This document shows, piece after piece, positions 4,713 through 63,764 of a stretch of 64,000 bases of DNA. The notes below the pieces were generated by a model. That model did no database searches. It was not told the origin of the DNA and saw nothing but the letters and a program-made list of their open reading frames with translations. The stretch lies in NCBI GenBank assembly GCA_964016885.1, contig OZ024743.1, positions 106,268,001-106,332,000 of the forward strand, given 5' to 3'. The position numbers and the translations under genes are program-made. Positions within the stretch are counted from its first letter, which is position 1, and each line of letters opens with the position of its first letter. Origin of the DNA: Eledone cirrhosa (Eukaryota).

Positions 4713-4728
4713 CATTGGTTAGTACAGC

Positions 4729-4912
4729 GCTGGATTGGCAGTAACGGTAGATAGTCGGACGCCATGCTTTCCAGCATAGTTACGTCTCTTTGCGGTCTGA
4801 TTTCAAATCCCGCCGAGGTTAACTTTGCCTTTCATCCTTACGGGGTCGATAAAATAAAGTACCAGTAATGTACTGAGTATTTGATGGCCTTGTACCAAAA
4901 GTAGAAACAATT
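4729..4912 (+). mobile_element. tRNA-derived SINE with 15-bp target-site duplication (TSD)
   Basis: Same family; TSD ATTGGTTAGTACAGC at 4714-4728 and 4913-4927. Confidence 0.9.
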
Positions 4913-6251: not shown

Positions 6252-6252
6252 T

Positions 6253-7801
6253 GCCTTTAGCTTGGGCTGCCCGGTGGATTCCATGCGGAGAGTGTGCACC
6301 TTCTCTGGTGTCTGCACTTCATGGTTATTTCCGATTTCAGGTGAACCGCATCATCCTTCAGTCAGACTATCTCCATGGCCTGGGATAGGCGTAGCTGACA
6401 CTTTCTATTTGCAGCCGAATATGCATTCGCGTGCCGAACGATACTCCAGTTGCGGGCATACAGGGTCCCTTTATCTTTCAAGTCCCACACCAGGTCCGCC
6501 AGCCTAGTAGAGTGCCACATTTTCCGGTCCTTGAAAGCGTTTGTGTGGTTATACACCCGCGATTTATAGGTCGTGGATGTTGCCCCGTGGATGTTGGTCG
6601 TGGGAGGTGCGCGTTATATTGTGCGTGCTATGCACACATTTATATACCAGGCCCTTCGCTAGGCATCTTCCCTGCAGAGGGCAAAGTGTGCCCGCTCTGC
6701 AGTTGTATGTTCTGTCGTTATATTGTTCATTTCGGACGCCTTGCTCTTGATCTTCCACGCCCCTCTCCTGATTCTCTGGGTCTTGTTCTGCCGACACGGT
6801 AGTCTCCCCTTCGCCACTCATTTTCGCCCGGCGTTGGATTGTATCGTTTTCCGCGGGTGTGGCGGCCGCCGTTGGGCCGGGTTGTAGTTTGAAGACCGGT
6901 CTGCAAGGGCCCTCCGGGCTCCGATGGACGGTCATTCGGCCGCTGCGGTTGACGGTCGAGGTGCCCCATCTTCGTCGCGTTGGTTTTTGTTTTGGCCATG
7001 TAGTGTGCATATTCTGCTGGAAATAGAAAGTGTGGGCTATGCTAACCGAGGCCATGGAGATAGTCAGACTGAAGGATGATGCGGTCAACCTGAAATCAGA
7101 AATAATCATGACGTACAGACACCAGAGAAGGTGCACACTCTCCGCATGGAATCCAACGGGCAGCCCAAGCTAAAGGCAAGCGGTGGAGCGCACGCCGACC
7201 AGAGCCGCGAAACGGGCTCAAGCCGAAATAACCCAGGATGCCTACCCGACTCTGCACGTCACCCTAGGCTAAAATATCGTCTGGGCCGGGATTCCAATGA
7301 TACTCATTCAAGTGCCTTACACCAATAAGACACTATACCTCAACCACAGTGACATACTCCAGTATGGCCGGTCCAGGCAGCCCCCTGCATGTGTATCTTT
7401 TCAGTAGAGAGTCCATACTCTCCACGCATTCCTGTTTGTAACACCTAATGTATGTTCCCTATAAAGACCCACGTGTGTATCTCATACTTCTCTTGTGTAC
7501 TATCTCATATACATACAGGTTCCTTCTTTTTTTATATATATTCTGCATGCATTTTCTATGTACGGTCTGCGCCAACTATTTACTGTAATACCATGAATGC
7601 ACATTATGTGGTTTGCGTGAAGATTCCATACGTGGATTGATCCATGTTCGCAACGTAACAACATCTCAGGAGGCACATATAACAAGGTGCACCCTTTCAT
7701 GTATTGCCCACTGTGTATATTTATGTGCCGTTATATGTATATTTTTTCAATAAATTTTTGTATTTTTTATATATTTTTATTTTATATATATACTGTATAT
7801 G

Positions 7802-11419: not shown

Positions 11420-14400
11420 AGCTCTGTAACCCCCGATCCCACCCCCCTCTACCAACAACAAGTCTCCTCCACCATCAATGACCTTATCGCCTCCTCCCTC
11501 CCCCACCGCTTCCCACCTCATCGTCCGCACCCCCCGCACCCCGACCATCTACTTCCTCCCCAAACTCCACAAACCCGACAACCCCGGCCGCCCCATCGTC
11601 TCCGCTTGCAACTGCCCCACCGAACTCATCTCCGCCTTTTTTCGACTCCCTCCTCGCCCACCTTGTCACCACCCTCCCCTCCCACATCTCCGACACCAAC
11701 CACGCCCTGCGCCTTTTCGACTCCTTCACCTACCCACCCGGCCCACAGCCCTTCCTCTTCACCCTAGACGTCAAGTCCCTCTATACAGTCATCCCCCACG
11801 CCGACGGCCTTCGCGCCCTCAAACACTACCTCGACCTTCACCCCTCCCCCATTCCCTCCACCCCCACTCTCCTTCGCCTCGCCGAGCTGGTCCTCACCCT
11901 GAATTGTTTCTCCTTCTCGGGTGAGTTTTACCAACAGGTCACGGGGGTAGCCATGGGTACAAGAATGGGCCCGAACTATGCCAACCTTTATGTTGGCCAT
12001 GTTGAGGCCCAAATCTTTGCCCAGTACACCGGCCCCACGCCGGAACTGTACGGTCGTTACATTGACGACTGTATCGGAGCCACGACCCTCACCCGAGAAC
12101 AGCTCGACTCCTTTCTCTCCTTCTTCTGCTCCTTCAACCCCTCCCTCCACTTCATCACCTCTATCTCCACCACCCACGTCCACTTCTTAGACATCTCCGT
12201 CGCCTTCGACCCCTCCCACCACTCCCTCGTCACCTCCGCCTTCTTCAAACTCACCGACTCCCACTCTTACCTTGACTTCACCTCTTCCCACCCCACCCAC
12301 ACTAAACACTCCATTCCCTACTCCCAACTTCTCAGGATCCGCCGCCTCCGTAGCCGTGATGCTGACTTTGAGTCCCAGGCCCTTTCCCTAGTCAGCCATT
12401 TCATCCGCAGAGGTTACCCCCCTCTCTCGTCCACACCGCTCTAACCGGCGCCCGTGCTGTCCCCCGCTGCACCACCCTCACCCCACGCCACCGCATACCC
12501 ACCCACCGTCTCCCCTTCCCCATCACCTACCACCCCTGCACATTACCCCTCCACCGCACCATCCGCCGCCTCTTCCGACGCCTCCAGTCCGACCTCTCCA
12601 CCTCCCACATCTTCCCAACCCCACCACTCCCCTCCTTCAAACGCGCACGCAATCTCCGCACCCTCCTCGTCCACAGCTCCCTACCGCCCAACCCACGCTC
12701 TGTTCCCCCCCGTTCCTTTCCCTGTTCTAGGCCCCGCTGCAACACCTGTCCCCACATCACCAACACCACCACCTTACATTGTCCCAACGGCCACTCTCTC
12801 TCGGTCCGGCATGCCTTCCGCTGCACCTCCTCCAACCTAGTCTACGGACTTATGTCGGACAGACGGGACGTCGCCTGGCGGACCGAGTCACGGAGCACCT
12901 CCGGGTTATTCGTCTCGGGGGCAGTTCCCCCATCGCCCGCCACTTTGGTGGCCCTGGACATTCCGCACGCCATGTCACAGTCTGTGGCCTACTCCAGTGC
13001 CACGGAACCCCCGCCAATCGCCTTACGGTCGAACAACGAACTATCTTCATCTTACAGACCCACACTCCCCCCGGCCTCAACTCCCCAACCTTATTCCTTT
13101 AGCCTTCGACCGCCTCCCTCCCCCCACACTTATCCCCCACTAACACCACTAACACACCCCTCCTTTTCACCGCCCACCCCACAACTAACAATACTAACAC
13201 CTCCACTCCTCCCCTCATCTGACCACCCTTCCCCAACTAACATACTAACATCCCTTCCCTCCCCTCTTCTCCTCCTCCCCCTCCTTATCACACGCACACA
13301 CCCACCGGCACATATATACACGCGCTCACACTAAACACACACCCTACTACCACCACTAACCCTCACCCCCAGACCTCTCACCTCCACACCTCCATCCCAC
13401 CACCCCGCAACTAACCTCACTAACACCCCCTAACTCCAAGCACACGAACACACGCACCCACTTACCCCACCCACCCCACACGCAACTAACATCACTAACA
13501 CCCCCAACCCCACGCACACGTACCCACACACCCTCGTACACCACCAACTCTACACACCCTACCACCACTAACCCCCACTCACACCTGCATTCAACGCCTC
13601 CCCACCTCCCGTATACTAACACCCACTAACACCTCTTCATCAAACTACACACACACACCAGTACACCACACTCCCTCCATAGAACCACACACACCCTTCT
13701 CTCCCCGCTCCACCCACACCCTCGTCCCACACTCACTCATCCCACTAACACCCCTACTAATACACACACACACACACTCCTCACTCCAACTTTCACACCT
13801 ACACATCTTCGCCCCTTTACCATTCCACCGACTGCTGCTATGCCCTCTGACCACCGCCCAGCACAAACAGACCAGAGCACTCCCACTGCTGACCACTTCC
13901 TGTTGCGCGCGCACCCCACATCTCTCCTCTTCCGACCATCGCTTCATGGAATAACCACACGCAGAAATTGACCAGCCACCAATCCACTAAACATCTTCGG
14001 AATTTACCAACTTTTCAACCATCCTCTTACGTAATCACCTATATAACTCACCCCCACACACCCCCCAAAACATTTTTTTTTCTCCACACGCCACCTACAC
14101 CCACAACACGCTTAAACCCCCCACACACGTGCTTTCCACCACATATCTACACCCTCGGCCTCCTGATTCCTCTCCCCCCACCCCTCTATCCACACACGCA
14201 CAGACACTACGACCCCCCTCCCACACACACCTCTTCCTGACCATGCAACCCCGTTCTTCCCCCAACCCTTACTTTCACATACACACACACACACGCACAC
14301 CTACACACACACACCACCTTCAGCCCTCCCCGCTCGGACACCCTGTATCCCTCTCCCCACTCCACCCGCCACCCCCCTACACACCCCACAACCTTCCACC

Positions 14401-16071: not shown

Positions 16072-16480
16072 TGGCGGCTGCCAACTCGTTTTTGAGTACG
16101 GCCACTACTTTATATCCATGTAGGAGAACTACCGATCTGCTGAACGAGTGTGGCTTTTTAGTGCAGCCAGTGACTTGAAAACTCTGGTACAAACACTACA
16201 CTTGTGACAATTATTGACACATAGTGCTGGGCCCATGGTTCCATGTGACGACAAGTGCAGAGAGATCTCCAGATATAAAGCAATGCCTGTGCCGTGAAGC
16301 TTTTATAGTGAGCAAAGGCACTGGCCAAAGCCAGTCCCACTCTCTTAACCAAGATGATATTTACCAAAAAGAAGAACAAGTCTACATCATTGGATACCAT
16401 CAGGGTTGCAGGTGTTATATCAGAGTTTTCCTTCTCCTAGAATTCTGCCTTGACAAAGGCTAAGGGGTCATCTCTCCCGG
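16072..16480. mobile_element. Non-coding repeat of about 410 bp inserted in (TA)n (copy 1 of 3)
   Basis: Highly similar to 53951-54330 and, inverted, to 54646-55059; one end resembles an RTE 5' UTR (TTTCCTTCTCCTAG...AAGGCTAAG). Confidence 0.8.
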
Positions 16481-17499: not shown

Positions 17500-20010
17500 A
17501 ATTTGATGAGATGGGTCGACACGCTAAGAATATGCAGATGAATCAGAATGAAATGACTTCAAGTGCACACAAACAACGGTAGATACTCCACTTTAACGTT
17601 TTATGGAAATTTAATGGAGAGTAAAATGAAGACGCTCTTGGGTAGAAACTAGACGCAGACGATAAACAACTAGCCAATTTTTCAGGAGAAGTTTCGGTCC
17701 AGGATCCATGGATAACTTCAAGAAATATCTGACCTGCTAGTGCTAACGGGGAGCGTTGCCAATTCTAGTTAAACTCTATCGGAATGGAAGTGTCATTAGC
17801 TGAGTTTCCCCGACATATTCGCAGTGCGATAGAACGATCATGCACACATACGTCCAGTGTCCGAGCATTCCTGTCTTTTGGGTTTACATCGAACACCTGC
17901 TGTAATATGTATGACGGATCCGGCTTTCAGCAAAGTCAATCGCAAATAATTCTCCACTGCCTTCCTTTAACTGTGAAAGGAAGACAGTTTTTTTATCTGT
18001 CTGGAGACAATAGTAAAAGCGGTCGTGTAGAATAGAAATAAAATTGATTCCATTAGTAGAAATGGAGTGGATGTTATGTGTGTGTTTGTGTGGGGGGCAT
18101 GGTTAGCATGTTAAGGTGTTAAAATATTAACGTATGTTAAAGTAGATTTAGCTCTGGTCTTTTATTTTTGAATATACTAAAGTGTGTTATGTGAGTGTGT
18201 GTTTGTGTGTATGTATATGTGTGTGGGGATTGTTAGCATGTTATGGTGTTAACATATCAACGTATATTAAAATATATTTAATGGTAGTCTATATTTTTGA
18301 ATAAATATATTTTCCTTATTTATTCGTATTTGGTCTGTTGTATTGTCAGTGTACATGTAAAGTGGGAAGATTTGGAAATTGGGTGTCTTATTGTTTGCAC
18401 ATATGTCTAGATATCCACTGAGTGGTGTATGTCTTGTCATAGGGTTTCGTAATTGGTGGTGATGAATTGTCATTCTGTTTCTGAAGGGGTGGTTAGTTGT
18501 TTGCCCTATATAATGTTCATTACATCTTTTACATTTAATGGCATGAATACATTTTTTGATGAGCAAGTGAAATTATTTTTTACTACAAAATGTTGTCCTG
18601 ATTGAAATGTATACATTGTGCCTCCAATGAGGAGAGTGCATGTTCGGCAATTAGAGCGACCACATCTTTTTGACAGTTTGTTTTAGGTTGTGGTAAGACA
18701 TTTGGCATCGGTGAGTAATATTTTTAGTGATTTAGGTTGTCTTTTGCTTTTTATTACTTTGTGTGTTTCAAATATGTTGTTTCATTCTTCGGCCTTGCTT
18801 CAATAGGGGATGTTCTTTTTGTATGCTTCCGTATTTGATGGGTTGCGTGTTGAGATATATGATAGAATATTGGATGTACATTGAGTTTGTTTAGGTTTAC
18901 ATACTTCTTCAATGTCTATTGCTTTAGCCCTTTCTATTCCGTTATCTATTAATAACAGTGCGTACTGTATTTCGAGCAGAATTTCCTTCAATTCTTGTAG
19001 TCTTATATTCCGCGTGTCATAATTGGAGAAAATTGTGCAAATTCGACTTGCTAGATTAGAAGCGATGTTCGTTTTCCTGTGCTGTGGATGGTTGCAGATG
19101 AATAAAAGGTATTGTTTGGAATCTGTTGGTTTGTAGTGGATTTCAGTTTCAATATCTGTGTCTTTTTAATGATTAAGATGTCCAGAAATGGGAGTTGGTC
19201 CTGACTGTATTCCATTGTGAATGAGATATGTTTATTGATGCTGTGAATTAAATTTTTGAATTCATTTAGTTGCTCGTGTGTATGAGACCGTAGAATAAGG
19301 CAGTCATCCAAATACCGTTTCTAATCGTCTGACAAATATTTGTGGAAGTTCAAGTCTTATTTTAACTTGGAATGTTCATATATCTGGACTTCCAATTATG
19401 CCATGACTAAGTTACCGTAAATTGGAGCGACATTTGTACCCATCGCAGTCCCCGATATTTGTTGTACTTGTTGCGATAGAAATCAAAAACTTTGTAAAAT
19501 GTATTTTAATCGCTCGGAGATGAATATTTTGTCTATTCATTCCGGGATCTCATTGAAGTATATTTCTAGCCAGAATCCTATTGCTTCTAGTACGTATTGG
19601 TTTGGAATCGTCATGTAGCGGTTCACTACAGCGAAAGACACAATAATAAAGTCGTTGTTGACATGTGTGGGGAGGTGGTTTAAGAGGTCCAGTTCGGCTC
19701 TTACACGGCTTGGTATGTGTTTGAGAATTGGTTTGAGTAATGTGTCTATAACGTTGCTCAGTCTATGTGTTTCTCATTGTGGGCCCGTTACAATTGGTCT
19801 TAATTTAAAGTCAGTGGGGTGCTGTATGGTTACGCAGGTTGAGGTGGAATTTTTCCAGGCTCGTAAAATGTTTTACACTTGTGGATCTTCGAAAGTCCGT
19901 AAAGGTAGCTGGTTTAGCATTCAACATATTTTAAATAATCGCGTTCCATTTTAGTTAACACAAATGAATGCGTTTAATCTGGTCATCGTTTTTGGTTGCT
20001 GGTCATTGTT
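17500..20010 (-). mobile_element. Decayed PLE (Neptune-like): RT + GIY-YIG
   Basis: RPIVTGP..THRLS, GTAMGTNVAPIYGN, YLDDC, QLPFLDILI, AIKCKRCNEHYIGQT; 3' UTR limit uncertain. Confidence 0.85.
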
Positions 20011-22520: not shown

Positions 22521-22614
<94 letters not shown>

Positions 22615-22615
<1 letters not shown>

Positions 22616-25160
22616 AGAGGGTCATATAGTTGTAATAATATTGCCAGAATTAATAACAGAACACATTCACTGTTTGGTTGGTTTTCGCTTCTGTATCTTT
22701 TATTTCAGTTAATTTATTCGGTCCTTAATATTTTCCATTGACTGATCAACAGTCAAAAATACAGATATAATATAGACACAAACACATATATATAGTCTAA
22801 CAAAGTTCTTTCGTTGCACATCTGCAACATCGTCAGTGGGCTATTATGTTTCCTCCTGTGGTATTGTATGTCTATGCCATCTTTATTTAATTTGTTTATT
22901 TATTTATTTATTTTTGGCTTCTTCTCTGCGCATGCGTTTCCGTGTGTGTATAGTGTTTGACGTGTGTTCGCGTGTGGGTGACTGTGTTTTGGTTATGGTA
23001 TTCTATCTTAGTTTACTAGTGTGTGTTTATATGTGTTTGTTGTTATTGTGCTTGTGTATATATTTATTTATTTATTTATATTTCTCTTAGGTCAGTATTG
23101 TTTGTTTGGGTGTTGTTGTTATTCCATTCATTTTTTTCTGTTTAGCTTTGGCCTTCTAAGTTCTATTTCATTGGCCTCTCTGATTTGCCTATGAGTCATT
23201 TCTATGTTTAGATATTATTTTAATTTCTATGTTTAGATATTATTTTAATTTCTATGTTGTCTATGTTACTGTCATGTTGTTGTCTAGCGTGTTCGTATAG
23301 TACTGAACCGTTTTTTCTTCCTTTTAGTCCCCCCAGTGTTGGTCTCTCCTTTCACATATACTACGAGCTGTCTCGCCTATGTATGTTGTTGTCATGTTTC
23401 TGCAAGTACCCTCTGTACATCTTATGCTATAGACTACGTTTCTAGTTTTACAGTTTATCCGGGGGTTTACTTTACATATAATACATTTCCTATTAGTACA
23501 GTGGGTTTTCTTAAAAGGGTATGTTTTGTTTATCAGGGATTTTATGGTGGTCCCTAGCTTTTCTACCTCCTTAATCTTTAGGTGGGTCTTTCTCATGGCC
23601 TTTCTACACTGGTTACCTAATTTCCCTCAAAGGGTAGCGTCCACAAACATGACACTCTGGTATCTCTGGTTGTCTTACCATGAGGTGGCTTTCCCTATCT
23701 TATGTTTAGTCCTATCTAAGCTATTCCATGATTTGCTCCTCTATAATGGGCAAATTCATTTCATGTCCAGTTCTATGAGGGTCTTATACTTCTCCGTGGC
23801 TCCTAAGTATACTTTGATTCTATCTCTCTGGTTGTAGCCAGAGAACTGCATGCGGTTGATGAAGTGTTGGATGTGTCTTTCCATTTCTGTTGGGTCGCAT
23901 ATGCAGGACACGTTCTTCATAACTCGTACCATGTCTGCGATCAGAATATTGAACTTAGAACTACTGGACATTGCTGAGATTTTGAGTATCAGGTATTTCG
24001 TGGCCATGGGTTTAGCGTAGTTTGAGTGGGGAATTTGGGCTCTCTCGTCTATAGTGTAAATCCAGAGTTCCGTGTCTAATATAGGGAGTCTATTGTTAGG
24101 GTGTTTAGAAGGGTAGTCGACAGTTACAGTTATACTCTGGTGTATGGAATTAGCTATCCGCTGGATGCCTTCCATTGTGCTACATTCTAAATCATACTTG
24201 TTAGTACTCTCTTGTGGGTATGTCCTTATCACTAGATTAATGTCGTCTACATAACGAGAGTACATGATGAGGTCTATGGAGCTCTCATCAAGGAGATCTT
24301 TGAGTCTCCTTTTCCACCATACCATAAAAAGGTTGGCAACGTCACCAGCTATGCTGACGCAAATGGCTGCTCGCTCATTTTGGGTGTAGATCTCGTCGAA
24401 TTTGAATATGTGGCCCTTTAGGGTAGTTTTAATACTAGCCCCTATTGCATGTGCGACCATTTTTCTTACCTGATCATTGTTTTGGTGGGTCTGTATGGTT
24501 TTGGTCCACCCAATCCACCTTTCCATGGGAGTCTTTTTTGCCACTGAGGTTATGGTGGGGCGGTCTACCTTTTATGGGTCTACTGGGGCAGAAACGGCTA
24601 AGGTAATGGCTGTCTAGGTAGTCAGTGTCATAATGAGTCTAAGTAGGAGGCCCAGTTCGTCTGTGTCGACGTCGCAGAACTCCACCTCACCCTCAGTCAT
24701 CATCTCCACACATTTTTCCACAGCAAAATCAATGTTAATGGATGGGTATAGTGATACCACGTCCATACTGCATATTATGCAGTTGGATAGGTTTTTGTTT
24801 TTGTTGCACTCACTGATTCTTCTGAGGAGGTCCTCTGTACTGTCACATACATCTGGAGACATCTTGATTATGGGGCGTATAACCATTGAGAAGAAGTAGG
24901 AGATCATGTAGTTGCTAACGATATTGGTGCTGCACACAGGTCTTGTTGGTGGTCTTGCTGTCGGGTCGTCGTCTGTCTTATAGTATTTGCGGAGCCCATA
25001 CAAGGGTGATATGTCATTGTTAGACGCCTGGAAGTTGTTGGCAGTGCATCTGCTTGGTTTAGGATGTCGGTCCATATCATCATCTGAGCGTTGAGGATCT
25101 TCTCTCTCCCCTCATATATTTGCTGAGTAATTTCGCTCGTGTGGGTGATGTGAGGTTATA
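22615..25160 (-). mobile_element. Decayed PLE of a different subgroup: RT + GIY-YIG
   Basis: PLYGLRK..PPTRPVC, SMDVVSLYPSI, SIAGDVANLFM, YSRYVDD, LPILD, NVVYSIRC..YIGETARS. Confidence 0.88.
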
Positions 25161-26980: not shown

Positions 26981-26984
<4 letters not shown>

Positions 26985-27166
26985 GTTTCTACTTCAGGCA
27001 CAAGGCCAGCAATTACCCAGTACATTACTGGTAGTTTATTTTATCGACCCCGTAAGGATGAAAGGCAAAGTCAACCTCGACGGGATTTGAACTCAGATCG
27101 TAAAGGGACGTAACTATGCTGGAAAGCATGGCGTACGACACTCTACCGATACTGCCAATCCACCGC

Positions 27167-27168
<2 letters not shown>
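26981..27168 (-). mobile_element. Full-length SINE
   Basis: Minus strand reads GGGCGGTGGATTGGCAGTATCGGTAG...GAGTTCAAATCCCG...GTAGAAACAATT. Confidence 0.9.
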
Positions 27169-32508: not shown

Positions 32509-32516
<8 letters not shown>

Positions 32517-32641
32517 ATACTTTGGGTGGGTCATGTTGCCAATAAGGTCTTATTGGCAACATGACCCTCCCAAAGTATAACAATATCGGTTTCAACACAC
32601 GATTTCAGATAAAGAATCTTGCTAAACAAAATTCAGAAACG

Positions 32642-32644
<3 letters not shown>
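32509..32644. repeat. Short fold-back copy (about 37-bp arms) of the 35843-36470 element
   Basis: ATTGTTATACTTTGGG..AATAAG-GT-CTTATT..GTATAACAAT plus the same 3' tail; in (TA)n. Confidence 0.9.
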
Positions 32645-35818: not shown

Positions 35819-36017
35819 GTACAAGCATATGTATATATATACATATTGTTATACTTTGGGAGGGTCATGTTGCCAATAAGAAACACACGTACCAGTTGCT
35901 TTCACTTCAATGTATTATATATTTATAAATTCATAAATTTACAAATCTACAAACTTATAAATTATAAATTTCTGGTTGGTTGGTTGGTTCCACAACCAGA
36001 TAGTTGTTTATATATAT

Positions 36018-36062
36018 AGTCATAGTCCTTTCGTCACACACTCTGTGACCTCTTCAGTGACT
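36018..36062 (-). ncRNA. Minimal type I hammerhead ribozyme
   Basis: AGTCA-CTGAAGA-G-GTCAC-AGAGTGT-GTGAC-GAAA-GGAC-TA-TGACT. Confidence 0.8.
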
Positions 36063-36193
36063 GGGGATTCCTTTCTTCGTTTCTGTGCCTTTTCTTTCTT
36101 CTATCCTACGCCATTTTGTTTCTGACACACACAGAAACAAAATGGCGTAGGATAGAAGAAAGAAAAGGCACAGAAACGAAGAAAGGAATCCCC

Positions 36194-36238
36194 AGTCACT
36201 GAGGCGGTCACAGAGTGTGTGACGAAAGGACTATGACT
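36194..36238 (+). ncRNA. Hammerhead copy with mutated core (CTGAGGC)
   Basis: Mirror copy of 36018-36062 with A9 changed to C. Confidence 0.65.
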
Positions 36239-36484
36239 ATATATATAAACAACTATCTGGTTGTGGAACCAACCAACCAACCAGAAATTTATAATTTATA
36301 AGTTTGTAGATTTGTAAATTTATGAATTTATAAATATATAATAAATTGAAGTGAAAACAAATGGTGCGTGTGTTTCTTATTGGCAACATGACCCTCCCAA
36401 AGTATAACAATATCGGTTTCAACACACGATTTCAGATAAAGAATCTTGCTAAACAAATTCAGAAACGAAATATATATATACATA

Positions 36485-37361: not shown

Positions 37362-37805
37362 TTTCCAATAAAAAAAATGTATAAATATATTTACGTAAAA
37401 GATGAATGCATATACATGTGTATAGATATATATAGTGACGGTTATTTATAGAATTCAGCAGATAGGACATACCATTTAGGTCTCATGTTCAAATATAATT
37501 TCCTCCATGGTATTTAAAATACTACTCCATTTTCGTAATTACATGATTTTATATATATATATATATATATATAAACGGAAAAAGGTGAAACGAAATTTCA
37601 TTTCTCACTCTTAGTACGGCTGTTACTTATATTTAAGTAACAGCCGTACTAAGAGTGAGAAATGAAATTTCGTTTCATTTTTTCCCTTTAACGTTTTCGG
37701 TATTCCCATTAACTCATTCGATATGCAAATTAGGCTGCTCAGCCGTTAATATGCATAAGGAAATTATATAGTCTCAGACGTTCAATCATCTGTCAGGAAG
37801 GTATG

Positions 37806-37846
37806 CGTTGCTGACGATAGTTAATAAGCTTGAAACTAGTACAGCG
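37806..37846 (+). ncRNA. Minimal type I hammerhead ribozyme
   Basis: CGTTG-CTGACGA-T-AGTT-AATA-AGCT-T-GAAA-CTAG-TA-CAGCG; palindromic ACTAGT stem III. Confidence 0.85.
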
Positions 37847-38237
37847 TTCCTTTGTTAGTGTTGAACAAATGAGCAACGATGGTTGCTAGACACTGTACGG
37901 CTTAATTCGGGATGTTTTTTTACCAACACACCGAGCATTATAATAAATGTTCGGTGAATCCATACGTACATATATATATATGTGCATGTATGTATATATA
38001 TATATATATACTACTGTACGTCTGTATACATATATGTATCTACGTATACATACTTATATTTAAGTAACAGCCGTACTAAGAGTGAGAAATTAAATTTCCT
38101 TTCATTTTTTTCCGTTTATCGTTTTCGGTACCCCGGCCGATTAACTCACTCGATATGCAAATTAGGCTGCTCAGCCGTTAATATGCATAAGAAAACTATA
38201 TACTTTCAGACGTTCAATCATCTGGCAGGAAGGTATA

Positions 38238-38277
38238 CGTTGCTGACGATAGTTAATAAGTTGAAACTAATACAACG
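38238..38277 (+). ncRNA. Second tandem hammerhead copy, slightly decayed
   Basis: CGTTG-CTGACGA-TAGTTAATAAGTT-GAAA-CTAA-TA-CAACG. Confidence 0.75.
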
Positions 38278-38491
38278 TTCCTTTGTTAGTGTTGAACAAA
38301 TGAGCAACTATGGTTGCTAGACACTGTACGGCTTAATTCGGGATGTTTGTTTACAAACACACCGAGCATTATAATAAATGTTCGGTGCATCCATACGTAT
38401 ATATATATATGTGTGCATGTATGTATATATATATATGTATACATACTACTGTACGTATGTATACATATATGTATGTACGCATGCATACTTA

Positions 38492-41169: not shown

Positions 41170-41699
41170 GTGTCTGTGTGTTGCTGATTAAGCGACGTTT
41201 CGGCAAACTTGTGTTGCAGTTGATTGAAACAAAGAAAATGCTTGCTCCTGAAACCAACCTGTAGGTGACTGAGATTTCCAAATAGAGGTGCAAACTTAAT
41301 GCAGCTCTCAGGAAGTTTTAGACTGACACAATATGTTATAAAATTGGCTCTTTGAAGTACATATGCAACACATATTTACCATCTGCCTGGAGTCAATCGA
41401 CGTGAAATAAAGAATCAACGCAAGGCTTGATTAGTGAATCGAACTCATGCCTCTACGAATTCATAGAGACATATTTCCTTTATCTTATAAATGTAATTAG
41501 AACGTATTTTTGAAATACACCATTTAAATATTAATTAGTAAATATCCCCACAAAAAATGATTAAATATTGCTCGTTGTCTTTAACGTCTCGTAAAAATTC
41601 GGGTAGGTTTAATGTCAAAATAACATTATGTTGCATAAATGATCATAAGTGACACACACATACTCAAACCTATACACACATACACACAGATATATATAT

Positions 41700-43853
41700 A
41701 TGACAAACATAGGACTAGCTTCATACAACTAGACATCAAAAATTACTACTCCTCTATCTCGCCCATAGTCCTGAACAAGGCACTCATATTCGCGATGAAT
41801 AGGACAGACCTAACACGCGACGAGGTCCGAATCATACACGCAGCCAGAAAGGCCCTGATCCGATTCAGTGGGGACATATGGACCCGTAGCGACTGGCCAA
41901 ATAATTTTGACATTACAATGGGCTCCAGTGACTCAGCGCAGCTAACGGACTTGGTTGGGATATACATACTCTACGAGATAAGCAGAGAAATACCCAACCT
42001 GAGCGGCGGGCTGTACCGAGACGATACACTCTTCACCGTAGTGGACCACAGCACCACACTGGTCGAAAATATGAAGGGGAGAATTAGGCACTTCTTTAGC
42101 AAGGTAGGACTTAATGTAGAGATGGAACCCAATAGAAAAGTAGTGAATTTCCTGGACACCACCCTCAACCCCAACACCAAGCTACACCACCCATATCATA
42201 AACCCAATGACAAGCTGGTGTATATCAACGCTGGGTCCAATCACCCTAGATCTATACTTAAGGCCGTAGTTAAGAGTGTCTCTGACAGAATCTCTAACTT
42301 GTCGGCCAATAAAGAGATATTCAATAGTAACGCTGATTACTATAACTCAGCGCTAGCCAAGGCGTTCCACAGCCATAGGATCAGCTACAACCCTAAGGGA
42401 CATGATCGAGATGACCCAAGGGTACCCCGGACCAATACCCAATGAGTCGCCCACCTAATACCTCAGTGACCAGTAGTAACACTCCCAGATCCCTATCCGT
42501 CACTACCCCCGGTAGAAGGTCCCAGATTACCCCAACGGTCTAATACCTACAACGCTGAAGACCACTGTGCTCCGGAGCATAGGCACCCCTTCACCGGCCC
42601 CACCACCCGCCTAACCCTAATTGAGCAGGGAGGCCGCACCCCGCAGGTTTATAGCACCACGGTGGGCCCATATGACCCTCATCATAGTGACGGCTCCTCA
42701 CACCTGAGTGACACCAACCGAGTTCGACCTGAGCTGTGCACAACCACGCAATGGACCAGGGCGGACACCCAACAATCCCGCAAGAATAAGACCAGGAAGG
42801 TCCCATGGTATAACCCTCCGTACTCGGTGGGTCTACGTACCAGCCTGGCTAGAAAATTCTTTAGAATACTGGATAAATATAGCCCTAGGGCCCACAAGTA
42901 CCATAAAATATTCAACAGGCACACGGTGAAACTTTCCTAATCAACCACACGCTCCGTAGCCCAGGACATAGCTGGCTTAAATAGGAATAGGCTCACTACC
43001 TCTCATACCACCGCAAACACCGGAGCCACCCAACAGAACCAGCACGCGGGGTGCACCCTAACGCGGACAGGCCCAACTAGCACACCGGAACCCAACGACT
43101 CTGTGCTGATTGCGGAGGTTACCCAGCCAAACCTGGGTGATGGTAACCACGCACTACATGTGGTGGGGCTTAAGAAGTCATGTAATTGCAGAGACCCATC
43201 ACTATGCCCACTTAGTAATGAATGCATGACGAAAAACGTAGTCTACAGGTGCAAGGTCACAACCCCTAACTCGGAGCACCACTACATAGGATCCACCGCG
43301 ACGAGCTTCAAAGATCGGTGGTATAACCATCGCCATTCCTTTAACAGAATAGAGAAGAGGAAATGTGCGGCCCTTTCTGAATTGATCTGCAAGCTCAAAC
43401 TTGAAAAGACCCCGCACTCTCTGGTCTGGTCCGTGGTTCCCCCAGAGAGAGGCGGGTCTGGTATTTGCAACCTCTGTTTTAGTGTGACACTCGAAATACT
43501 TCATGGCGGAACCAATTTATTAAACAGAAGGGCCGACTTATTCGGTGCCTGCAGACACCTAAGGACGGGAACGTTCCTCAAGCTATATGGATAAACCCCG
43601 GTTAAGGCCTCCCACAACGCCCCCACCCTGTATGTCCCCTACACCCCGTACCAATGACCAATGGACAACAACAACCACCCATAGTTTGTGGTCCCTATGG
43701 TGGATGGTCCACCGGATCCTCTACTGGTTAGGAGTCATCAAAAGCACGGGGGCGTTGTGGGAGGCCTTAACCGGGGTTTATCCATATAGCTTGAGGAACG
43801 CTATATATATGTATACTATGCTATATATATCTATGCTATGTGTATATATGTGC

Positions 43854-45925: not shown

Positions 45926-46083
45926 GTCGATCGACAAGATCCCACGTTTCATTTAATTAACAAGTGTGGTGGCGTTCATTGAATCGGACCGAGGTAAGCA
46001 AGATTCCATCGGTCGTTTCAATTGCTAATACTGTCTACCTGTCAATATATATATAAATATAGATAGAGACAGAGATAAATAAT

Positions 46084-46266
46084 TGTTCCTACTTTTGGCA
46101 CAAGGCTAGCAAATATCCAGTGTATTACTGGTACTTTATTTTATCGACCCCGTAAGGATGAAAGGCAAAGTTAACCTCGGCGGGATTTCAACTCAGACCG
46201 TAAAGGGACGTAACTCTATGCTTCAAATCATGGTGTCAGACTCTCTACCGATACTGCCAATCCACC
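46084..46266 (-). mobile_element. SINE with 18-bp TSD
   Basis: TSD GAGACAGAGATAAATAAT at 46066-46083 and 46267-46284. Confidence 0.9.
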
Positions 46267-47159
46267 GAGACAGAGATAAATAATGAGAGGCATAAATAGA
46301 TAGGCAGACAGATTAATAGACAGCCTGATTTTGTTCTATTGTCTTTTCCATTCAGAATAAATATCTTCACGCTGTTAATATTCCTGCCGTTGTATATATT
46401 CTGTGGCCTCGATGTGTCCGCTATTTCCATTCTTCTTCAATTCGCTTTAGATATTCCCTTGTTATATTTGTGGCATTTCATCCAGAACGCACAGACACAA
46501 ACACACATATATACATTTATAAGTATATATAGAAGGCTTTGAAGATGTTGAAATAGAAGCTTTCACCATATTTTAACTAAATAAATTTAAGCAGAGAGTA
46601 GGGTTTAAAACCCTCTAAAATGGAAAAACTGAGTATTCAGACCACTCTGCCACTATTACACCGATACATCAACTATTCCTTTCCATTCAAATTAGAAGTA
46701 TATAAATAGTAAATATAATGACAAAGCAAGCGTCTGTTTTGAAGACAGCGATCGAAGTTTGAATTTAGTAGAAATAGGAGCTTTCACCATATTTTGAGTA
46801 AAGAAATTTAGGCAAATAGGGGATATTAAAACCTTCTAAAATGAAAATCAAACCCTATATATATATACATATGTAACTTTATATTACATTTTGGTATATA
46901 GTTATACTCCCGTAACCATGATATTCCATGCTCATTCTGCTTTCAATTTGTCGGAGTGATTTGTTTTTTCACTCCCATTAATTTATGGAAGATTCATTGT
47001 ATCTAAAAATGTCTTAGAAGGTATTAGTTTAATGTGATGTATTAAACTAAATACTGCAAAGATTGTAATTTAAATCCACCATTTCATGATGCGCTATTTT
47101 CTCCATACCAAAATGATATTTCATATTATCTCTATAACATTTTCTAAACCTACTACTGT

Positions 47160-48308: not shown

Positions 48309-48531
48309 TTATGATGAGGAGGAAGAGGAGGAGGAGGGGGAATAGGAGGAGGAGGGGGAGATGATGTCGGTAACTACATCGATGACGACGGAAAGAACGA
48401 AAAAAAGGATGACGATAGCAACGAAAACGATAGCAACGACAACAATAACAAGGACGATGATAACGAAATACGAAAAAGAAAACCCACCCCCAACGATATC
48501 AACGAAAACAATAAGTGCTGAAGACAATAAC

Positions 48532-48716
48532 TGTTTCTACTTTAGGCACAAGGCCAGCAATTAACCAGTACATTACTGGTACTTTATTTTATCGACCCCG
48601 TAAGGATGAAAGGCAAAGTCAACCTCGGCGGGATTTGAACTCAGATCGTAAAGGGACGTAACTATTCTGGAAAGCATGGCGTCCGACCCTCTACCGATAC
48701 TGCCAATCCACCGCCC
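48532..48716 (-). mobile_element. Full-length SINE with 14-bp TSD
   Basis: TSD CTGAAGACAATAAC at 48518-48531 and 48717-48730. Confidence 0.92.
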
Positions 48717-50657: not shown

Positions 50658-50726
<69 letters not shown>

Positions 50727-50891
50727 TATTAGAATTGGTGCTCTGAAATACCGATACATATATGAATGTGTATATAGTGTATTTTGAAATACACTTTATG
50801 CTTAAGTAAAAACATTTCGAAGACCTTACGCTATTGATTTAGAGTAGTGACAGTCTCACTTACTTCAATTTTCAGCAAACAGGGGAGATAA

Positions 50892-50936
50892 AGTTGACAC
50901 AGCTCTGTTTCGTACTTTTTGGTACTTATCAAAGCT
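50892..50936 (-). ncRNA. Type I hammerhead with U3-A8 core
   Basis: AGCT-TTGATAA-GTAC-CAAAAA-GTAC-GAAA-CA-GAGCTG-TG-TC-AACT, enclosed by a helix of about 20 bp (50867-50887 with 50942-50963). Confidence 0.75.
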
Positions 50937-51185
50937 AACTGCTCCACCTGTTTGCTGAAAATTATCAATTTTGGATTCTTATAGAATTCCAGTAATAATG
51001 AAGAACTGATTATACAAACGTTTGCCGGTCAAGCAAAAATTGAAAATTAAAATTGGTGCTCTGAAATAGCGATATATATATAAATGTATATATAGTGTAT
51101 TTTGCAGTGTAATCAGTTCCTGATTATTACTGGAATTCTATAAGAATCCAACATTCATAATTTTCAGCAAACAGGAGGAGTGCTG

Positions 51186-51227
51186 AGCTTTGATAACTAC
51201 CAAAAAGTACGAAACAGAGCTATGTCA
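51186..51227 (+). ncRNA. Mirror hammerhead copy (U3-A8), damaged
   Basis: AGCT-TTGATAA-CTAC-CAAAAA-GTAC-GAAA-CAGAGCTATGTC followed by a deletion. Confidence 0.6.
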
Positions 51228-51345
51228 TTGTTTGCTGAAAATTGAAGTAAGAGACACAGTCACTACTCTAAAACAATAGCGTAGGGTCTTCGAAATGTTT
51301 TAATTAAGCATACAGTGTATTGCAAAATACACTATATATACATTC

Positions 51346-51380
<35 letters not shown>

Positions 51381-53950: not shown

Positions 53951-53952
<2 letters not shown>

Positions 53953-54330
53953 GGTGGCTGCCAACTCGTTTTCGAGTGCGGCCATTACTTTATATCCATG
54001 TAGGAGACATCCTACTGATGCGCTGAACGAGTGTGACATTCTAGTCCAGCCAGCGACAATTATTGACACATAGTGCTAGGCCCGTGGTACCTTGTGACGG
54101 CAAGTGCAGAGAGATCTCCAGATATAAAGCAATGCCTGTGCGTGAAGCTTTTATAGTAAGCAAAGGCGTTGCACAAAGCCAGTCCCACTCTCTTAACCAG
54201 GATGATATTTACCAAAAAGAAGAACAAGTCAACATCATTGGATACCATCAGTTGCAGGTGTTATATCAGAGTTTTCCTTCTCCTAGAATTCTGACTTGGC
54301 AAAGGCTAAGGGGTCATCTCTCCCGGTGAT
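53951..54330. mobile_element. Copy 2 of the 16072-16480 repeat, with an internal deletion
   Basis: Sequence similarity seen directly; TA flanks. Confidence 0.85.
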
Positions 54331-54461: not shown

Positions 54462-55059
54462 CATGGTGCTACTGGTAACATGTATCCCAGTACAACATGT
54501 CTCATGGTCGGGTCGTTGGCGACTAAACTGGCAACCCCACCAAGGTTTCTTGGTGAGGAGGGTGACTTTGGACATCCTGCAGGACTAAAAACAAAACCTG
54601 TCAAAGGGCAAAGGAGCTCTTAAGAGTCAATGGCCATCCAAAATCACCGGCAGAGATGACCCCTTAGCCTTTGTCAAGGCAGAATTCTAGGAGAAGGAAA
54701 ACTCTGATATAACACCTGCAACCCTGATGGTATCCAATGATGTTGACTTGTTCTTCTTTTTGGTAAATATCATCTTGGTTAAGAGAGTGGGACTGGCTTT
54801 GTGCAGTGCCTTTGCTCACTATAAAAGCTTTATGGCACAGGCATTGCTTTGTATCTGGAGATCTCTCTGCACTTGTCCTCACATGGTACCATGGGCCCAG
54901 CACTATGTGTCAATAATTGTCACAAGTGTAGTGTTTGTACCAGAGGTTTCAAGTCGCTGCCTGGACTAAAAAGTCACACTCGTTCAGCGCTTCGGTAGGG
55001 GTTCTCCTACATGGATATAAAGTAGTGGCCGTACTCGAAAACGAGTTGGCAGCCACCAT
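54462..55059. mobile_element. Copy 3 (inverted and longer) of the 16072-16480 repeat
   Basis: 54646-55059 is the reverse complement of copy 1; extra 185 bp or so resembles an RTE 5' leader. Confidence 0.8.
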
Positions 55060-58597: not shown

Positions 58598-59463
58598 ATA
58601 TATATATTTATATATATATATATGTCAGGTTATGAATCCCGACACATTCAGCGTGTCATAATATATATACATATATCAGCCTTCTTTCTTTCCCTCTTCA
58701 CGCCCTGGGGTGAAGTGGTATCTTGTCTTTAAAGTGTAAGAATATCCTAGACACCCAGTAGACAACTGATGAGACCCCCCCCCCCTGTTCTTGCTTTCTT
58801 CGTATTCCCACTGCATTTTAAGTTACCTTAAATAGCAACTACACAGCCATTTCTATTCTCTCTCTCTCTATATATATATATATGTACATATGATTTTAAA
58901 ATTAATTTATATCTTTAAAGACTTAAATTATTTTAAAATCCCATACATATATATATATGCATGTATCTGTGATATATGGCTATGCTAACTTATAAAACAC
59001 ATCTAAAAGATGTTGGGCATTTCCCTCTAGTTATATGCAAAAATGTGGCTTAGATTGATATATGTTTGAAGTACAATTTGACAGGTTGAAGAAGATCAAG
59101 TAATTAGGCATCAACTTTTGTGGTAATTTCACATAAAAATCTGGAGTGTCATGGTTATTGCAGTTTTATGCACAAAAGTGGTCCAAATTGTTATCAGTTT
59201 GGATACTCAGGTGAGTAGGCACAGGAATTTGTAGTTCTTTCGTGTCCTCAAAGGGGAGTGTTGCTATGTATTGAATATGGACAGTGTCAGTTTATGTCTT
59301 TTTCGTGTGTTCAATAGTCAAGTTGATATTGTATTTCTATCAATCACATAAGTTCAAAATTACGAGAATATTCTTTATGCATATGTTAGTCTGTTTTGTA
59401 TTTGTATAAAAATAGTTTATTTAACTCACTCGTCCGATCAATAGCAACAAGAAAAGTAGTAAT

Positions 59464-59806
59464 AATTGTTTATACTTTTGGCACAAGGCCAGCAATTTTC
59501 CTAGTGTATTACTGGTACTTTATTTTATAGACACCATAAGGATGAAAGGCAAAGTTAACCTCGGCGGGATTTGAACTCAGACAATAAAGGACCGTAACTC
59601 TTTGCTTGCAAAGCATGGCGTCTGACCCTCTAGCGATACTGCCAATCGGACGCCATGCTTTGCAGCATACAGTTGCGGCTCTTTATGATGTGAGCTCAAA
59701 TCCCGCCGAGGTTAACTTTGCCTTTCATCCTTACGGGGTCGATACAATAAAGTACCAGTAATACACTGATTGAATTGCTGACCTTGTGTCAAAAGTAGAA
59801 ACAATT
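59464..59806. mobile_element. Head-to-head inverted SINE pair
   Basis: Minus-strand copy 59464-59646 directly abuts plus-strand copy 59647-59806. Confidence 0.88.
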
Positions 59807-60189
59807 ATTACTATCAACATCTTAATTATAATGGCAACTATGATAATAATGCTCCAATCTGCGAAATGAACAAGAATTGTACGTGACTGTGTGTATGCAT
59901 GTATGTGTATGTGTGAGCGTGCGTGTTTAGGTGTGTGTGTAAGTGTGTGTGTATGTGCGTATGTATGCGTGTGTGGCAATGCCGATTTATTCCCTTCTAC
60001 GTTCGGGTAGAGAGGGTCATGTGATATAATAATAATAATGGTAACAACAGCAATAATAATGATGATAATATTTCCATTAGTAAGGTTGAAATATAATCTA
60101 TTCAGATGTAGTTTGTATTTTTGAATAAATATATTGAAGAATGAATAAATACAAAATCAACTCGAGATACATTCAATAATCTATACTGT

Positions 60190-62457: not shown

Positions 62458-63588
62458 CTAGTCTACCCCCCCCGGGTCATTATGGGGTTTGAGGGCGAGG
62501 TAAGTCCTACGCAATCTATGTTTACATGCAGTAACCAGTTCATCTTTCTTGTTTAGGAGTTGGTCCGTCGAAAACAGCATTTGTAAAGTTTCCTCCGAGC
62601 ATAAATTGCACGGACGGCGTCCTCCCGTGTAAGAATTGGCTCTGGACAGTAATCTCCAAGTGAGATCATAGGTGATGTTGTTGTCCTTGAGGTCCCATAT
62701 GTGGCCCGAAAGTGTAGTGGCGTGACGCCGGGCCGGGTTTCGGAAGGTATGTCTATGTTGGTATAGCCGGGTCTTGAAGTCACATGCGGTAAGTCCTATA
62801 TAGGCTTTGTTGGAGGTATCCGTCCTCACGTTGCACTGGTAGATCACATTACGGTCTCTGCATCTATTGTCGAGTGGGCAAATAGATCTATCCGGGCAGT
62901 TACACCTCCTGCTCGGTTCTCCACTGCTATTTAGGTTATTTCTGCCATCGGGGTTGAGTTTTTTTGTTGTTAGAGGAGACGATGTTTTGTGCGAAGTTTG
63001 GTGTAGTGCTGTAAGAGAGTTTGATGGTATTTTTGTTAATTATGTTGTGGTAGCGGTGTTGTAATGGGAAGTGTTTTTCAATGAGCCTAAAGAATAGTTT
63101 CCCGATGGGAGTAGTCACCTCTGCGTTGTGGGGAGGATTGAACCATGTTACATTGCGTGAGCGGCGGTGTCTCCTGCTGGTTCCGCTAATGGGAGCTGGA
63201 CAGTAGGATATTTCCTCCCGGAAACCACTCCGCTTGAGGGCCTGGTTGTAATAAGGCGCATGTTCATCGAATATCCGCTCATTAGCTGACAAACGGGATA
63301 TGCGGAGGGAGATGTTTTTGACCAGGTTGTTTGTGATGTTCCTAGGATGGTTTGATCGGCGGTGGATGTAGTGCAGATTGTCATTAGGTTTCCTGTATGG
63401 GTAGTACAGGTCGTTTTCGAGGTCGAGGGTTACGTCCAGGAAGTTTACTCGGGTCAGGGACGTTTGTAGGGTTATTTTAAATCCCCAGTCGCGGAAGAAT
63501 CTGATTAATTGTTTCCGGACCCGATCTGTACTACTGGGGTTGTACCCTTTAAGGGTAAGGAGCCCATCATCACGGTACAATCCACCAC
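62458..63588 (-). pseudogene. PLE RT-thumb/GIY-YIG coding remnant (frameshift near 62940, 5' truncated)
   Basis: ORFs 62936-63580 and 62458-62847 join into the C-terminal half of a PLE protein. Confidence 0.85.
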
Positions 63589-63764
63589 TGTATTTTCTTT
63601 GACCTCATGCCCAGATGTAGCTGGCACTACCAACGCTTGATTGGGTCTACTCCACCCCTCCCCTCTTTCTCCTACTGGCAGGTTTAGCCACCATCTCCCC
63701 TACTAATTTGCAGCCACAGAATTACTACTGATTTTTGACAATCACTTTGACCATATATGGAATT

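What the first reader, a model, noticed from the sequence alone, without database searches (positions are those of the whole stretch)
50730..51350. 320-nt HHR unit in partial-tandem plus inverted arrangement, with the ribozyme capped by a 20-bp helix
Seen: about 1.17 units on the minus strand (period about 319), then an inverted copy, with both 3' ends pointing outward into (TA)n. AATTTTCAGCAAACAGG..GGAG / CTCC..CCTGTTTGCTGAAAATT flank the HHR and extend stem I. The core is U3-A8 with a GUC site. Inference: a small, structured, non-coding self-cleaving retroelement in the size range of metazoan retrozymes.
Basis: partly seen in the sequence, partly recalled or inferred. Interest (0 to 1): 0.75.

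Follow-up and report, generated by a model that had tools for sequence, protein, structure and literature searches.

The report
Decayed Penelope-type insertion with hammerhead ribozyme
This is a worn-down copy of a small jumping element that carries a self-cutting RNA motif and is arranged the way Penelope retrotransposons arrange their insertions; it belongs to a known kind, although it may be a rare direct footprint of how such tiny elements get copied.

Summary
The minus strand carries a 318-nt unit (A) preceded by a 61-nt copy of its own 3' end (C). An inverted, 5'-truncated copy (B) is joined head to head. Both outer ends run into (TA)n, and only one arm keeps the last ~26 nt. That is the published signature of Penelope-like element (PLE) insertions, and other families in this window show it too.

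Copy A holds a real type I hammerhead: U3-A8 core (a known natural variant), GUC site, and a stem II and loop matching Rfam HH9. It is the canonical type, not the minimal PLE type. The 21-bp closing helix is intact only in A. B is broken (stem I deletion, G10.1 change). A has a stem I mismatch and folds preferentially into an inactive form. The copies differ by 9%, and no coding signal was found.

Best reading: one old insertion made by PLE enzymes, most likely of a non-autonomous retrozyme-type unit. The 318-nt period rests on one junction, so it could instead be the truncated 3' end of a longer PLE. The locus lacks two consecutive ribozymes and cannot release a circle. New member of a known kind; interest 0.3.

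The parts
50660..50729 (.). Left (TA)n array; inferred target into which the 3' end of copy A runs
   Evidence: TRF 35 copies, 97%
50728..51045 (-). Copy A: 318-nt unit, 33% G+C, with the hammerhead and the 3' tail
50728..50753 (-). 3' tail of about 26 nt (up to ~34 because the boundary lies in TA-like sequence), present in A and C, absent from B
50864..50966 (-). Hairpin holding the type I hammerhead of copy A
   Evidence: MFE -43.8 kcal/mol, z -7.8; HH9 20.9 bits, E 0.003 on this 121-nt stretch
50947..50963 (-). 5' strand of the 17-bp closing helix (continued by 4 bp at 50945-50942 after a bulged U)
50867..50887 (-). 3' strand of the closing helix (4 + 17 nt)
50926..50932 (-). Catalytic box U3-A9 with U3-A8 in place of C3-G8
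50912..50925 (-). Stem II (4 bp, closed by G10.1-C11.1, no bulge after A9) with 6-nt loop CAAAAA, identical to the HH9 consensus loop
50896..50911 (-). GAAA box, 3-bp stem III with near-palindromic loop, GUC triplet; predicted cleavage between 50896 and 50895
51046..51106 (-). Copy C: 61-nt 5'-truncated repeat of A's 3' end, tail included, no ribozyme; its 5' break falls in the loop of an 8-bp hairpin of the unit
   Evidence: 54 of 60 identical to A; 34 of 35 identical to B; hairpin
51107..51355 (+). Copy B: inverted copy starting 30 nt inside A's 5' end and lacking the tail; 3' end blurred in TA-like sequence (51346-51357)
51159..51243 (+). Broken hammerhead hairpin of B: core kept (U3 51190, C17 51226), G10.1 changed to C, 12 nt of the 3' strand of stem I deleted after 51227
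51346..51380 (.). Right (TA)n array, overlapping the end of B

Best explanation
A single old insertion made by the reverse transcriptase/GIY-YIG endonuclease of a Penelope-like element, acting on a non-coding RNA that carries a canonical type I hammerhead. The RNA was most likely a 318-nt non-autonomous (non-LTR retrozyme-type) unit. SHOWN in the sequence: the arrangement, the ribozyme motif, the decay. INFERRED by analogy with the Anolis Poseidon enzyme (PMC11167929): the enzyme nicked both strands of a (TA)n array and primed cDNA on each. One cDNA began at the outer start site (tail included), 168 nt downstream of the cleavage site, read through the cleavage site, completed one unit and ran 61 nt into the next, stopping in a hairpin loop (A + C). 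The other began at the inner start site (no tail) and stopped earlier (B). The two were joined head to head. Read-through of the cleavage site means that the template was uncleaved tandem RNA or a ligated circle, not a cleaved linear monomer. Both copies have since decayed. The locus has no two consecutive ribozymes and cannot itself release a monomer. Confidence: about 0.9 for PLE-type insertion; about 0.55 for the whole statement including the 318-nt monomer.
For: Architecture matches the PLE description point by point: partial tandem, inverted 5'-truncated copy at the 5' end, 30-40 bp tail on one end, (TA)n bias without discernible TSD (PMC8557442; PMC3846280; this locus). PLE RT and endonuclease remnants of at least three types are spread through the window. 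A second HHR-bearing family shows the same head-to-head + tail form at 35843-36469. The core-to-3'-end distance is 204 nt here and 154-223 nt in the three other HHR-bearing elements. For a retrozyme-type unit: 318 nt and 33% G+C fit the described 150-450 bp, <50% G+C (PMC7229834). The ribozyme is canonical: 20 of 26 core/stem II positions equal the HH9 consensus and the 6 differences form 3 compensatory pairs (my count on the alignment). The paper assigns canonical motifs to retrozymes and minimal ones to PLEs, and the other window HHRs are minimal. No coding signal against 4 PLE profiles.
Against: The period rests on one junction, and no other copy was found in 64 kb. The tandem part lacks a ribozyme, so the two-consecutive-HHR criterion of the 2026 preprint fails. 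The predicted circle buries the ribozyme, whereas most animal retrozyme circles are predicted to leave it free, some mussel ones excepted. The circle is only 65% paired versus 57% in shuffles, nearly all of the excess from one hairpin. Some PLEs also carry canonical or bulge-less hammerheads (plant PLEs, shrimp), so ribozyme type is not decisive. No sequence link to any autonomous PLE was found. C is closer to B (1 of 35 different) than to A (6 of 60), which could mean two events, though the numbers are too small to tell. Self-cleavage was not tested.
Confidence: 0.55

Rival explanations
1. A, B and C are three 5'-truncated 3' ends (pseudo-LTR region) of a longer, coding PLE. The 318-nt period is only the point where the first cDNA broke off and the enzyme restarted on a new RNA, or where a second copy inserted at the AT-rich 5' end of the first. 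No 318-nt RNA ever existed.
For: Most PLE insertions are 5'-truncated and retain only the terminal repeat. Opposite-strand HHR pairs 100-700 bp apart and U3-A8 cores were described for schistosome PLEs (PMC4209133). The A/C junction is AT-rich. The 35843-36469 element in this window shows HHR-bearing arms of similar length with no tandem period. PLE 3' UTRs and ORF starts are poorly conserved, so the negative coding test does not exclude this. One frame of the unit scored weakly against an endonuclease C-terminus (1.4 bits; 4 of 200 shuffles as high).
Against: The ribozyme lacks the bulge after A9 and the long stem II of the metazoan PLE consensus and has the canonical loop II. The weak coding score is not significant after four profile tests or with a frameshift allowed (5 of 60 dinucleotide shuffles as high); real 318-nt endonuclease ends score 41.5 and 105.4 bits.
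Confidence: 0.37
2. A foldback/MITE-type DNA transposon in a TA target, or a ~97-nt MITE (the 17-bp inverted repeat as termini) nested in another repeat; the hammerhead would be incidental.
For: Long inverted arms ending in TA; the helix ends in the palindrome AATT, which could mask a 4-bp duplication.
Against: The arms are asymmetric by the tail, and the spacer repeats the left end with its tail. The short inverted repeat is not flanked by TA and lies in register with stem I of a motif expected 5.5e-4 times per window by chance. Non-TA flanks share no duplication.
Confidence: 0.04
3. A post-insertion rearrangement or assembly artefact: one copy duplicated and inverted by local repair, or collapsed reads.
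For: The region is rich in microsatellites, and such structures are known to trouble assemblies.
Against: A and B differ by 9% plus two indels, and mutations that break the same hairpins fall in different copies, which fits long independent decay rather than read collapse. The one-sided tail is not expected from random repair.
Confidence: 0.04

Closest known systems
Non-LTR (metazoan) retrozymes (Cervera & de la Pena 2020, PMC7229834; Li et al. 2026 preprint 10.64898/2026.07.22.740005)
   Same: Unit of 318 nt, low G+C, no coding signal, canonical type I hammerhead, more-than-unit-length head-to-tail copy, co-occurrence with PLEs.
   Different: Only 1.19 units, so no two consecutive ribozymes; U3-A8 core; 3-bp stem III with a 6-nt loop; ribozyme buried in the predicted fold; an inverted copy and a tail, which the main texts of these two papers do not describe.
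EN+ Penelope-like elements and their pseudo-LTRs (PMC8557442, PMC3846280, PMC11167929)
   Same: Partial tandem, head-to-head inverted truncated copy, one-sided tail, (TA)n target, no clear TSD, hammerhead 150-220 nt from the 3' end.
   Different: No RT/GIY-YIG ORF; canonical rather than minimal hammerhead; the direct repeat (61 nt) is too short to include the ribozyme; tail 26-34 nt against 30-40.
U3-A8 hammerheads of Schistosoma Cercyon PLEs and other natural variants (PMC4209133; PMC3088659)
   Same: Same covariation; opposite-strand pairs within a few hundred bases were reported for schistosome min-HHRs.
   Different: The schistosome motifs are minimal (bulge after A9, no real stem III); this one has the HH9-type stem II and loop.
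Rfam Hammerhead_HH9 (RF02275)
   Same: Stem II length, loop CAAAAA and GAAAC match, with compensatory changes only.
   Different: 20.9 bits against a gathering score of 52; stem I weak; HH9 motifs are isolated amniote intronic ribozymes (described in PMC6155905; that HH9 is this set is recalled).
Non-autonomous Chlamys PLEs such as MRC1 (PMC8557442)
   Same: Non-coding elements that form pseudo-LTRs and head-to-tail insertions through PLE enzymes.
   Different: Green algal; most Chlamys lack hammerheads.

Membership tests
Type I hammerhead ribozyme | Conserved core with a 3-8 pair, GAAA box and UH site | tested here: met
   U3-A8, GAAA, GUC in A and B; U3-A8 is a natural variant reported active in vitro (PMC3088659 passage)
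Type I hammerhead ribozyme | Stem II closed by G10.1-C11.1, and stem III | tested here: met
   A: 4 of 4 and 3 of 3 pairs. B fails stem II (3 of 4, G10.1 lost)
Type I hammerhead ribozyme | Stem I of 5-6 bp next to the core | tested here: inconclusive
   A: 3 of the first 6 positions pair, with C-A at the second; B: 3' strand deleted. A fails my strict descriptor. Compatible with decay
Type I hammerhead ribozyme | Self-cleavage | not testable with these tools
   Folding only: active form 13.2-13.5 kcal/mol above best fold as monomer, 7.5 per ribozyme as dimer
Rfam HH9 | Score at or above gathering threshold (52 bits) | tested here: not met
   20.9 bits (A), 15.0 bits (B)
Non-LTR retrozyme | Unit of 150-450 bp, G+C under 50% | tested here: met
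   318 nt, 33%; period seen at one junction only
Non-LTR retrozyme | At least two consecutive units each with a complete HHR (definition of an active element) | tested here: not met
   C (61 nt) has no ribozyme and B is on the other strand
Non-LTR retrozyme | No protein coding | tested here: met
   Longest stop-to-stop frame within the unit 65 aa; no significant score against 4 PLE profiles. Other protein families were not searched with the unit
Non-LTR retrozyme | Multi-copy family with arrays | not testable with these tools
   No host genome available; 0 further copies in the window
Non-LTR retrozyme | Expressed as monomeric circular RNA | not testable with these tools
   No RNA data
Non-LTR retrozyme | Highly self-paired circle that leaves the HHR free to fold | tested here: inconclusive
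   z -5.1 but 65% versus 57% paired, HHR buried; the copy is decayed, and some mussel retrozymes are exceptions
PLE insertion structure | Partial tandem with a 5'-truncated upstream copy | tested here: met
   C + A
PLE insertion structure | Inverted 5'-truncated copy adjoining the 5' end | tested here: met
   B
PLE insertion structure | 30-40 bp tail on one end only | tested here: met
   One-sided extension of 26 nt, up to ~34 given the blurred boundary; slightly short
PLE insertion structure | Microsatellite (TA)n target, TSD often not discernible | tested here: met
Autonomous PLE | ORF with RT and GIY-YIG endonuclease | tested here: not met
   absence at this locus does not exclude truncation
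Metazoan PLE minimal HHR | Extra base after A9, long stem II, stem III nearly absent | tested here: not met
   No bulge, 4-bp stem II, 3-bp stem III against the consensus
MITE / foldback DNA transposon | Symmetric terminal inverted repeats with a target-site duplication | tested here: not met
   Arms asymmetric by the tail; no duplication outside the TA arrays. A TA duplication cannot be seen inside a TA array

The most novel reading that the evidence does not exclude
A canonical-hammerhead, 318-nt non-LTR retrozyme family whose insertions carry the full PLE-specific footprint (more-than-unit cDNA, head-to-head inverted copy, one-sided tail, TA target). That would be direct structural evidence that PLE enzymes mobilise animal retrozymes, which so far rests on shared motifs, co-occurrence and sequence relatedness in the papers I read. 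It would also map the two reverse-transcription start sites on the circle (about 142 and 168 nt past the cleavage site). A further, weaker possibility: the U3-A8 core is part of a switch, since U3 extends the 7-8 bp helix that locks the monomer inactive in both copies and that dimer formation would partly relieve.
Probability: 0.45. Interest if true: 0.5.

Novelty: new member of a known kind. Interest (0 to 1): 0.3.

Why it matters
As a single decayed copy it matters little: hammerhead-bearing PLE ends and retrozymes number in the thousands per invertebrate genome, and each element of the description has precedent. It would matter modestly if the 318-nt monomer is real. The family would then tie retrozymes to PLE enzymes through an insertion footprint and give a short natural template for testing PLE reverse transcription on circular RNA. 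It also shows that curated models miss such motifs: the Rfam gathering scan of the window returned 0 matches although several hammerhead-type motifs are present.

Tried and rejected
Further copies in the window: blastn word 7 and nhmmer with an A/B profile found none beyond self-matches (best outside hit E 2.9).

Prokaryotic genome collection: the U3-A8 pattern gave 0 loci. The wider pattern gave 4 loci, all C3-G8 canonical hammerheads with no similarity to the unit outside the core. They served only as structural references. Metagenome and viral contig collections stayed unchecked, and no eukaryotic genome collection was available.

Coding remnant: a frame across the cleavage site resembles a PLE endonuclease C-terminus by eye. 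It was rejected on shuffles. The profiles used subsets of the hits: 58 of 120, 16 of 17, and 120 and 10 of 150.

One homologue search (window 12734-13099, longer proteins) returned nothing.

Rfam microRNA hits reflect inverted repeats and TA runs, all below gathering.

A second ribozyme around the downstream GAAA (near 50820) was considered by eye and dropped for lack of a core (not).

The folding gap as proof of inactivity was rejected as decisive. Two reference canonical hammerheads gave gaps of 6.1 and 13.8 kcal/mol, the latter with a doubtful cleavage-site assignment.

The 'query-like' descriptor (1 hit in the window, 0 in 12 of 12 simulated windows) was tuned to the query and is not relied on.

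Five short motifs of the element were not found in the one readable supplement file of PMC8557442. The supplement of PMC7229834 could not be read, the supplements of the bioRxiv preprint were not seen, and PMC5785218 is not held. These could hold related motifs or inverted retrozyme examples.

Full report
OBSERVATION. The region 50728-51355 lies between two TA arrays. It has three related pieces. A (50728-51045, minus strand) is 318 nt. C (51046-51106, minus) repeats A's last 61 nt and sits directly upstream of it. B (51107 to about 51355, plus) is an inverted copy that starts 30 nt inside A's 5' end and stops about 26 nt short of A's 3' end. A and B share 226 of 249 aligned bases, with gaps of 12 and 1 nt; A and C share 54 of 60; B and C share 34 of 35.

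THE RIBOZYME. Copy A reads as a type I hammerhead: U3-A9 box at 50932-50926, a 4-bp stem II with loop CAAAAA, GAAA, a 3-bp stem III with a near-palindromic loop, and GUC ending at 50896. Rfam finds nothing at gathering level in the window. It aligns A to HH9 at 20.9 bits, E 0.02 on 851 nt and 0.003 on 121 nt, which alone would not be significant for a whole window. The alignment is more telling: by my count 20 of 26 core and stem II positions equal the HH9 consensus, and the 6 differences form three compensatory pairs. From window base frequencies, core + G-C-closed 4-bp stem II + GAAAC is expected 5.5e-4 times per window, and 8e-8 times with this loop. U3-A8 is a known natural covariation (PMC3088659, passages), also in schistosome PLEs (PMC4209133).

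The motif is canonical rather than minimal. It lacks the extra base after A9 of the metazoan PLE consensus. The spacing on the 5' side (four bases, then six before the core) equals that of HH9 and of reference hammerheads retrieved (my reading).

STATE OF THE COPIES. B has lost G10.1 and 12 nt of the 3' strand of stem I. A pairs at only 3 of the first 6 stem I positions. In both, the best fold pairs the 5' strand of stem I and U3-G5 with stem-loop III. The active form of A lies 13.2-13.5 kcal/mol higher as a monomer and 7.5 per ribozyme as a double hammerhead; B lies 18 higher. Two reference hammerheads gave 6.1 and 13.8, so this is suggestive, not decisive. The long helix closes the whole motif but is present in the active and inactive folds alike. 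[quoted passage not shown] The circularised unit folds better than shuffles (z -5.1), but the flanks alone do not (z -0.4, -1.6).

WHAT THE ARRANGEMENT IS. PMC8557442 (passages) describes PLE insertions as partial tandems, often with an inverted 5'-truncated copy at the 5' end, a 30-40 bp tail at one end, and a bias for microsatellites that hides target duplications. PMC3846280 (passages) gives a rotifer example with a 31-bp tail and a shorter inverted arm. This locus meets each point. PMC11167929 (parts 1-2 of 4) shows that a PLE protein cuts and extends both DNA strands at AT-rich sites, starts at two internal RNA sites that bound the tail, and mainly uses uncleaved RNA. That gives the mechanism I infer: two cDNAs, one from each strand and each start site, joined head to head. 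Self-priming on an antisense template is the alternative account of the inversion; the junction here is not a palindrome centre but falls in a hairpin loop. Both long cDNAs cross the cleavage site, so the template was uncleaved or re-ligated.

CONTEXT. The window is animal DNA rich in microsatellites and PLE remnants. Profiles built from homologues mark RT or endonuclease pieces at many places, of at least three types; Pfam marks 2 of 16 tested frames, both under its cut-offs. A relaxed scan found 7 hammerhead cores with stem II of 3 bp or more against a mean of 2.2 in 30 simulated windows, and 3 with 5 bp or more against 0.27. Three sit in PLE-like settings (22836, 36057, 38243) with core-to-end distances of 223, 214 and 154 nt, against 204 here. 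The 35843-36469 element has the same head-to-head form with a one-sided extension, and 37574-38399 is a short tandem with an inverted 5' piece. The architecture is therefore ordinary in this genome. The host may be a cephalopod: the 2 of 17 homologues with a species name are Octopus bimaculoides (48% and 58% identity). That is weak evidence.

MONOMER OR TRUNCATED END? The unit has no coding signal. Best scores against four PLE profiles were 1.4, -2.4, 2.4 and -3.7 bits, reached by 4, 148, 19 and 160 of 200 shuffles, while true endonuclease ends of equal length scored 41.5 and 105.4. With one frameshift allowed, 5 of 60 dinucleotide shuffles scored as high. Size, G+C and the canonical ribozyme fit non-LTR retrozymes (PMC7229834, parts 2-4 of 6). 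But the period is seen once, no other copy lies in the window, and PLE 3' ends are commonly left alone by truncation. I put the monomer at about 0.55 and the truncated end of a longer PLE at about 0.37. Either way this locus has no two consecutive ribozymes and fails the preprint's definition of an active retrozyme. It works like a PLE-mobilised retrozyme; I do not file it as an active member.

NOVELTY. Each component is in print: the arrangement, U3-A8 and opposite-strand ribozyme pairs in PLEs, retrozymes as PLE derivatives (preprint, parts 1-3 of 5), and non-autonomous PLEs forming pseudo-LTRs. What I did not find is a canonical-hammerhead retrozyme described with the inverted copy and tail. 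The word 'inverted' does not occur in the main text of PMC7229834 and occurs only in a reference title of the preprint, and 'tail' not at all there. Seven library searches listed no such paper. The library lacks most subscription papers, and the supplements of these two papers were not seen.

PAPERS SEEN. Long parts: 10.64898/2026.07.22.740005, PMC11167929, PMC4209133 (parts 1-2 of 4, and parts 1-2 of 3 of its supplement), PMC7229834. Passages only: PMC8557442 (plus a term search of one supplement file), PMC3846280, PMC3088659, PMC6765202, PMC8969392, PMC6155905, PMC13282606. Title only, in a reference list: Lunse et al., PMC5785218. My clade labels for the window's PLE remnants (Nematis-, Neptune-, Poseidon-like) are recalled from motif patterns and were not tested by a tree.

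VERDICT. A real feature, correctly seen: a decayed, hammerhead-bearing insertion with the PLE footprint. New member of a known kind, interest 0.3; 0.5 if the family proves to be a true 318-nt retrozyme.

Noticed in passing
window 35843-36469 and 32509-32643: Near-perfect palindromic head-to-head pair (96.7% over 571 nt) with a 56-nt one-sided extension and a minimal hammerhead core at 36057 (-); the partner core appears mutated. A short relative at 32509-32643 has the same inverted-plus-extension form between TA arrays.
   Followed up: partly
window 37574-38399: Head-to-tail dimer of period about 430 with a minimal-type hammerhead core in each unit (38243 + and near 37812) and an inverted 5' piece. 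It has two consecutive ribozyme motifs, so it may be a better retrozyme candidate than the finding itself.
   Followed up: partly
window 22613-25111 (-): PLE ORF fragments followed by a minimal hammerhead at 22836 and a TA array: an ORF-linked example in this genome.
   Followed up: partly
window 5441-6388, 11482-13102, 18129-19970, 41639-43594, 62458-63604 and others: Many broken PLE RT/GIY-YIG remnants of at least three types. No hammerhead core was found downstream of several endonuclease ends of the type at 62458 and 25873.
   Followed up: partly
window 4727-4916, 26984-27168, 46078-46267, 48526-48716, 59457-59813 and more: A ~190-nt interspersed repeat with about ten copies, one pair inverted head to head at 59457-59813; SINE-like by size, not examined.
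   Followed up: no
window 16073-16480, 53951-54330, 54647-55057: A ~410-nt repeat family with three copies next to TA arrays and no hammerhead core detected.
   Followed up: no
window 50937-50941 versus 51181-51185: Four of the 23 A/B substitutions cluster in five bases at the loop of stem I, and C is closer to B than to A. This may mean two variant RNA templates or two events; the numbers are too small to decide.
   Followed up: partly
L002:247-272, L003:117-142, L001 and L004:501-526: Canonical C3-G8 type I hammerhead motifs in prokaryote genome records. Two lie on very short contigs with identical surroundings in unrelated bacteria, which suggests contaminating DNA; two lie 6.7 kb apart on one large contig.
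   Followed up: no
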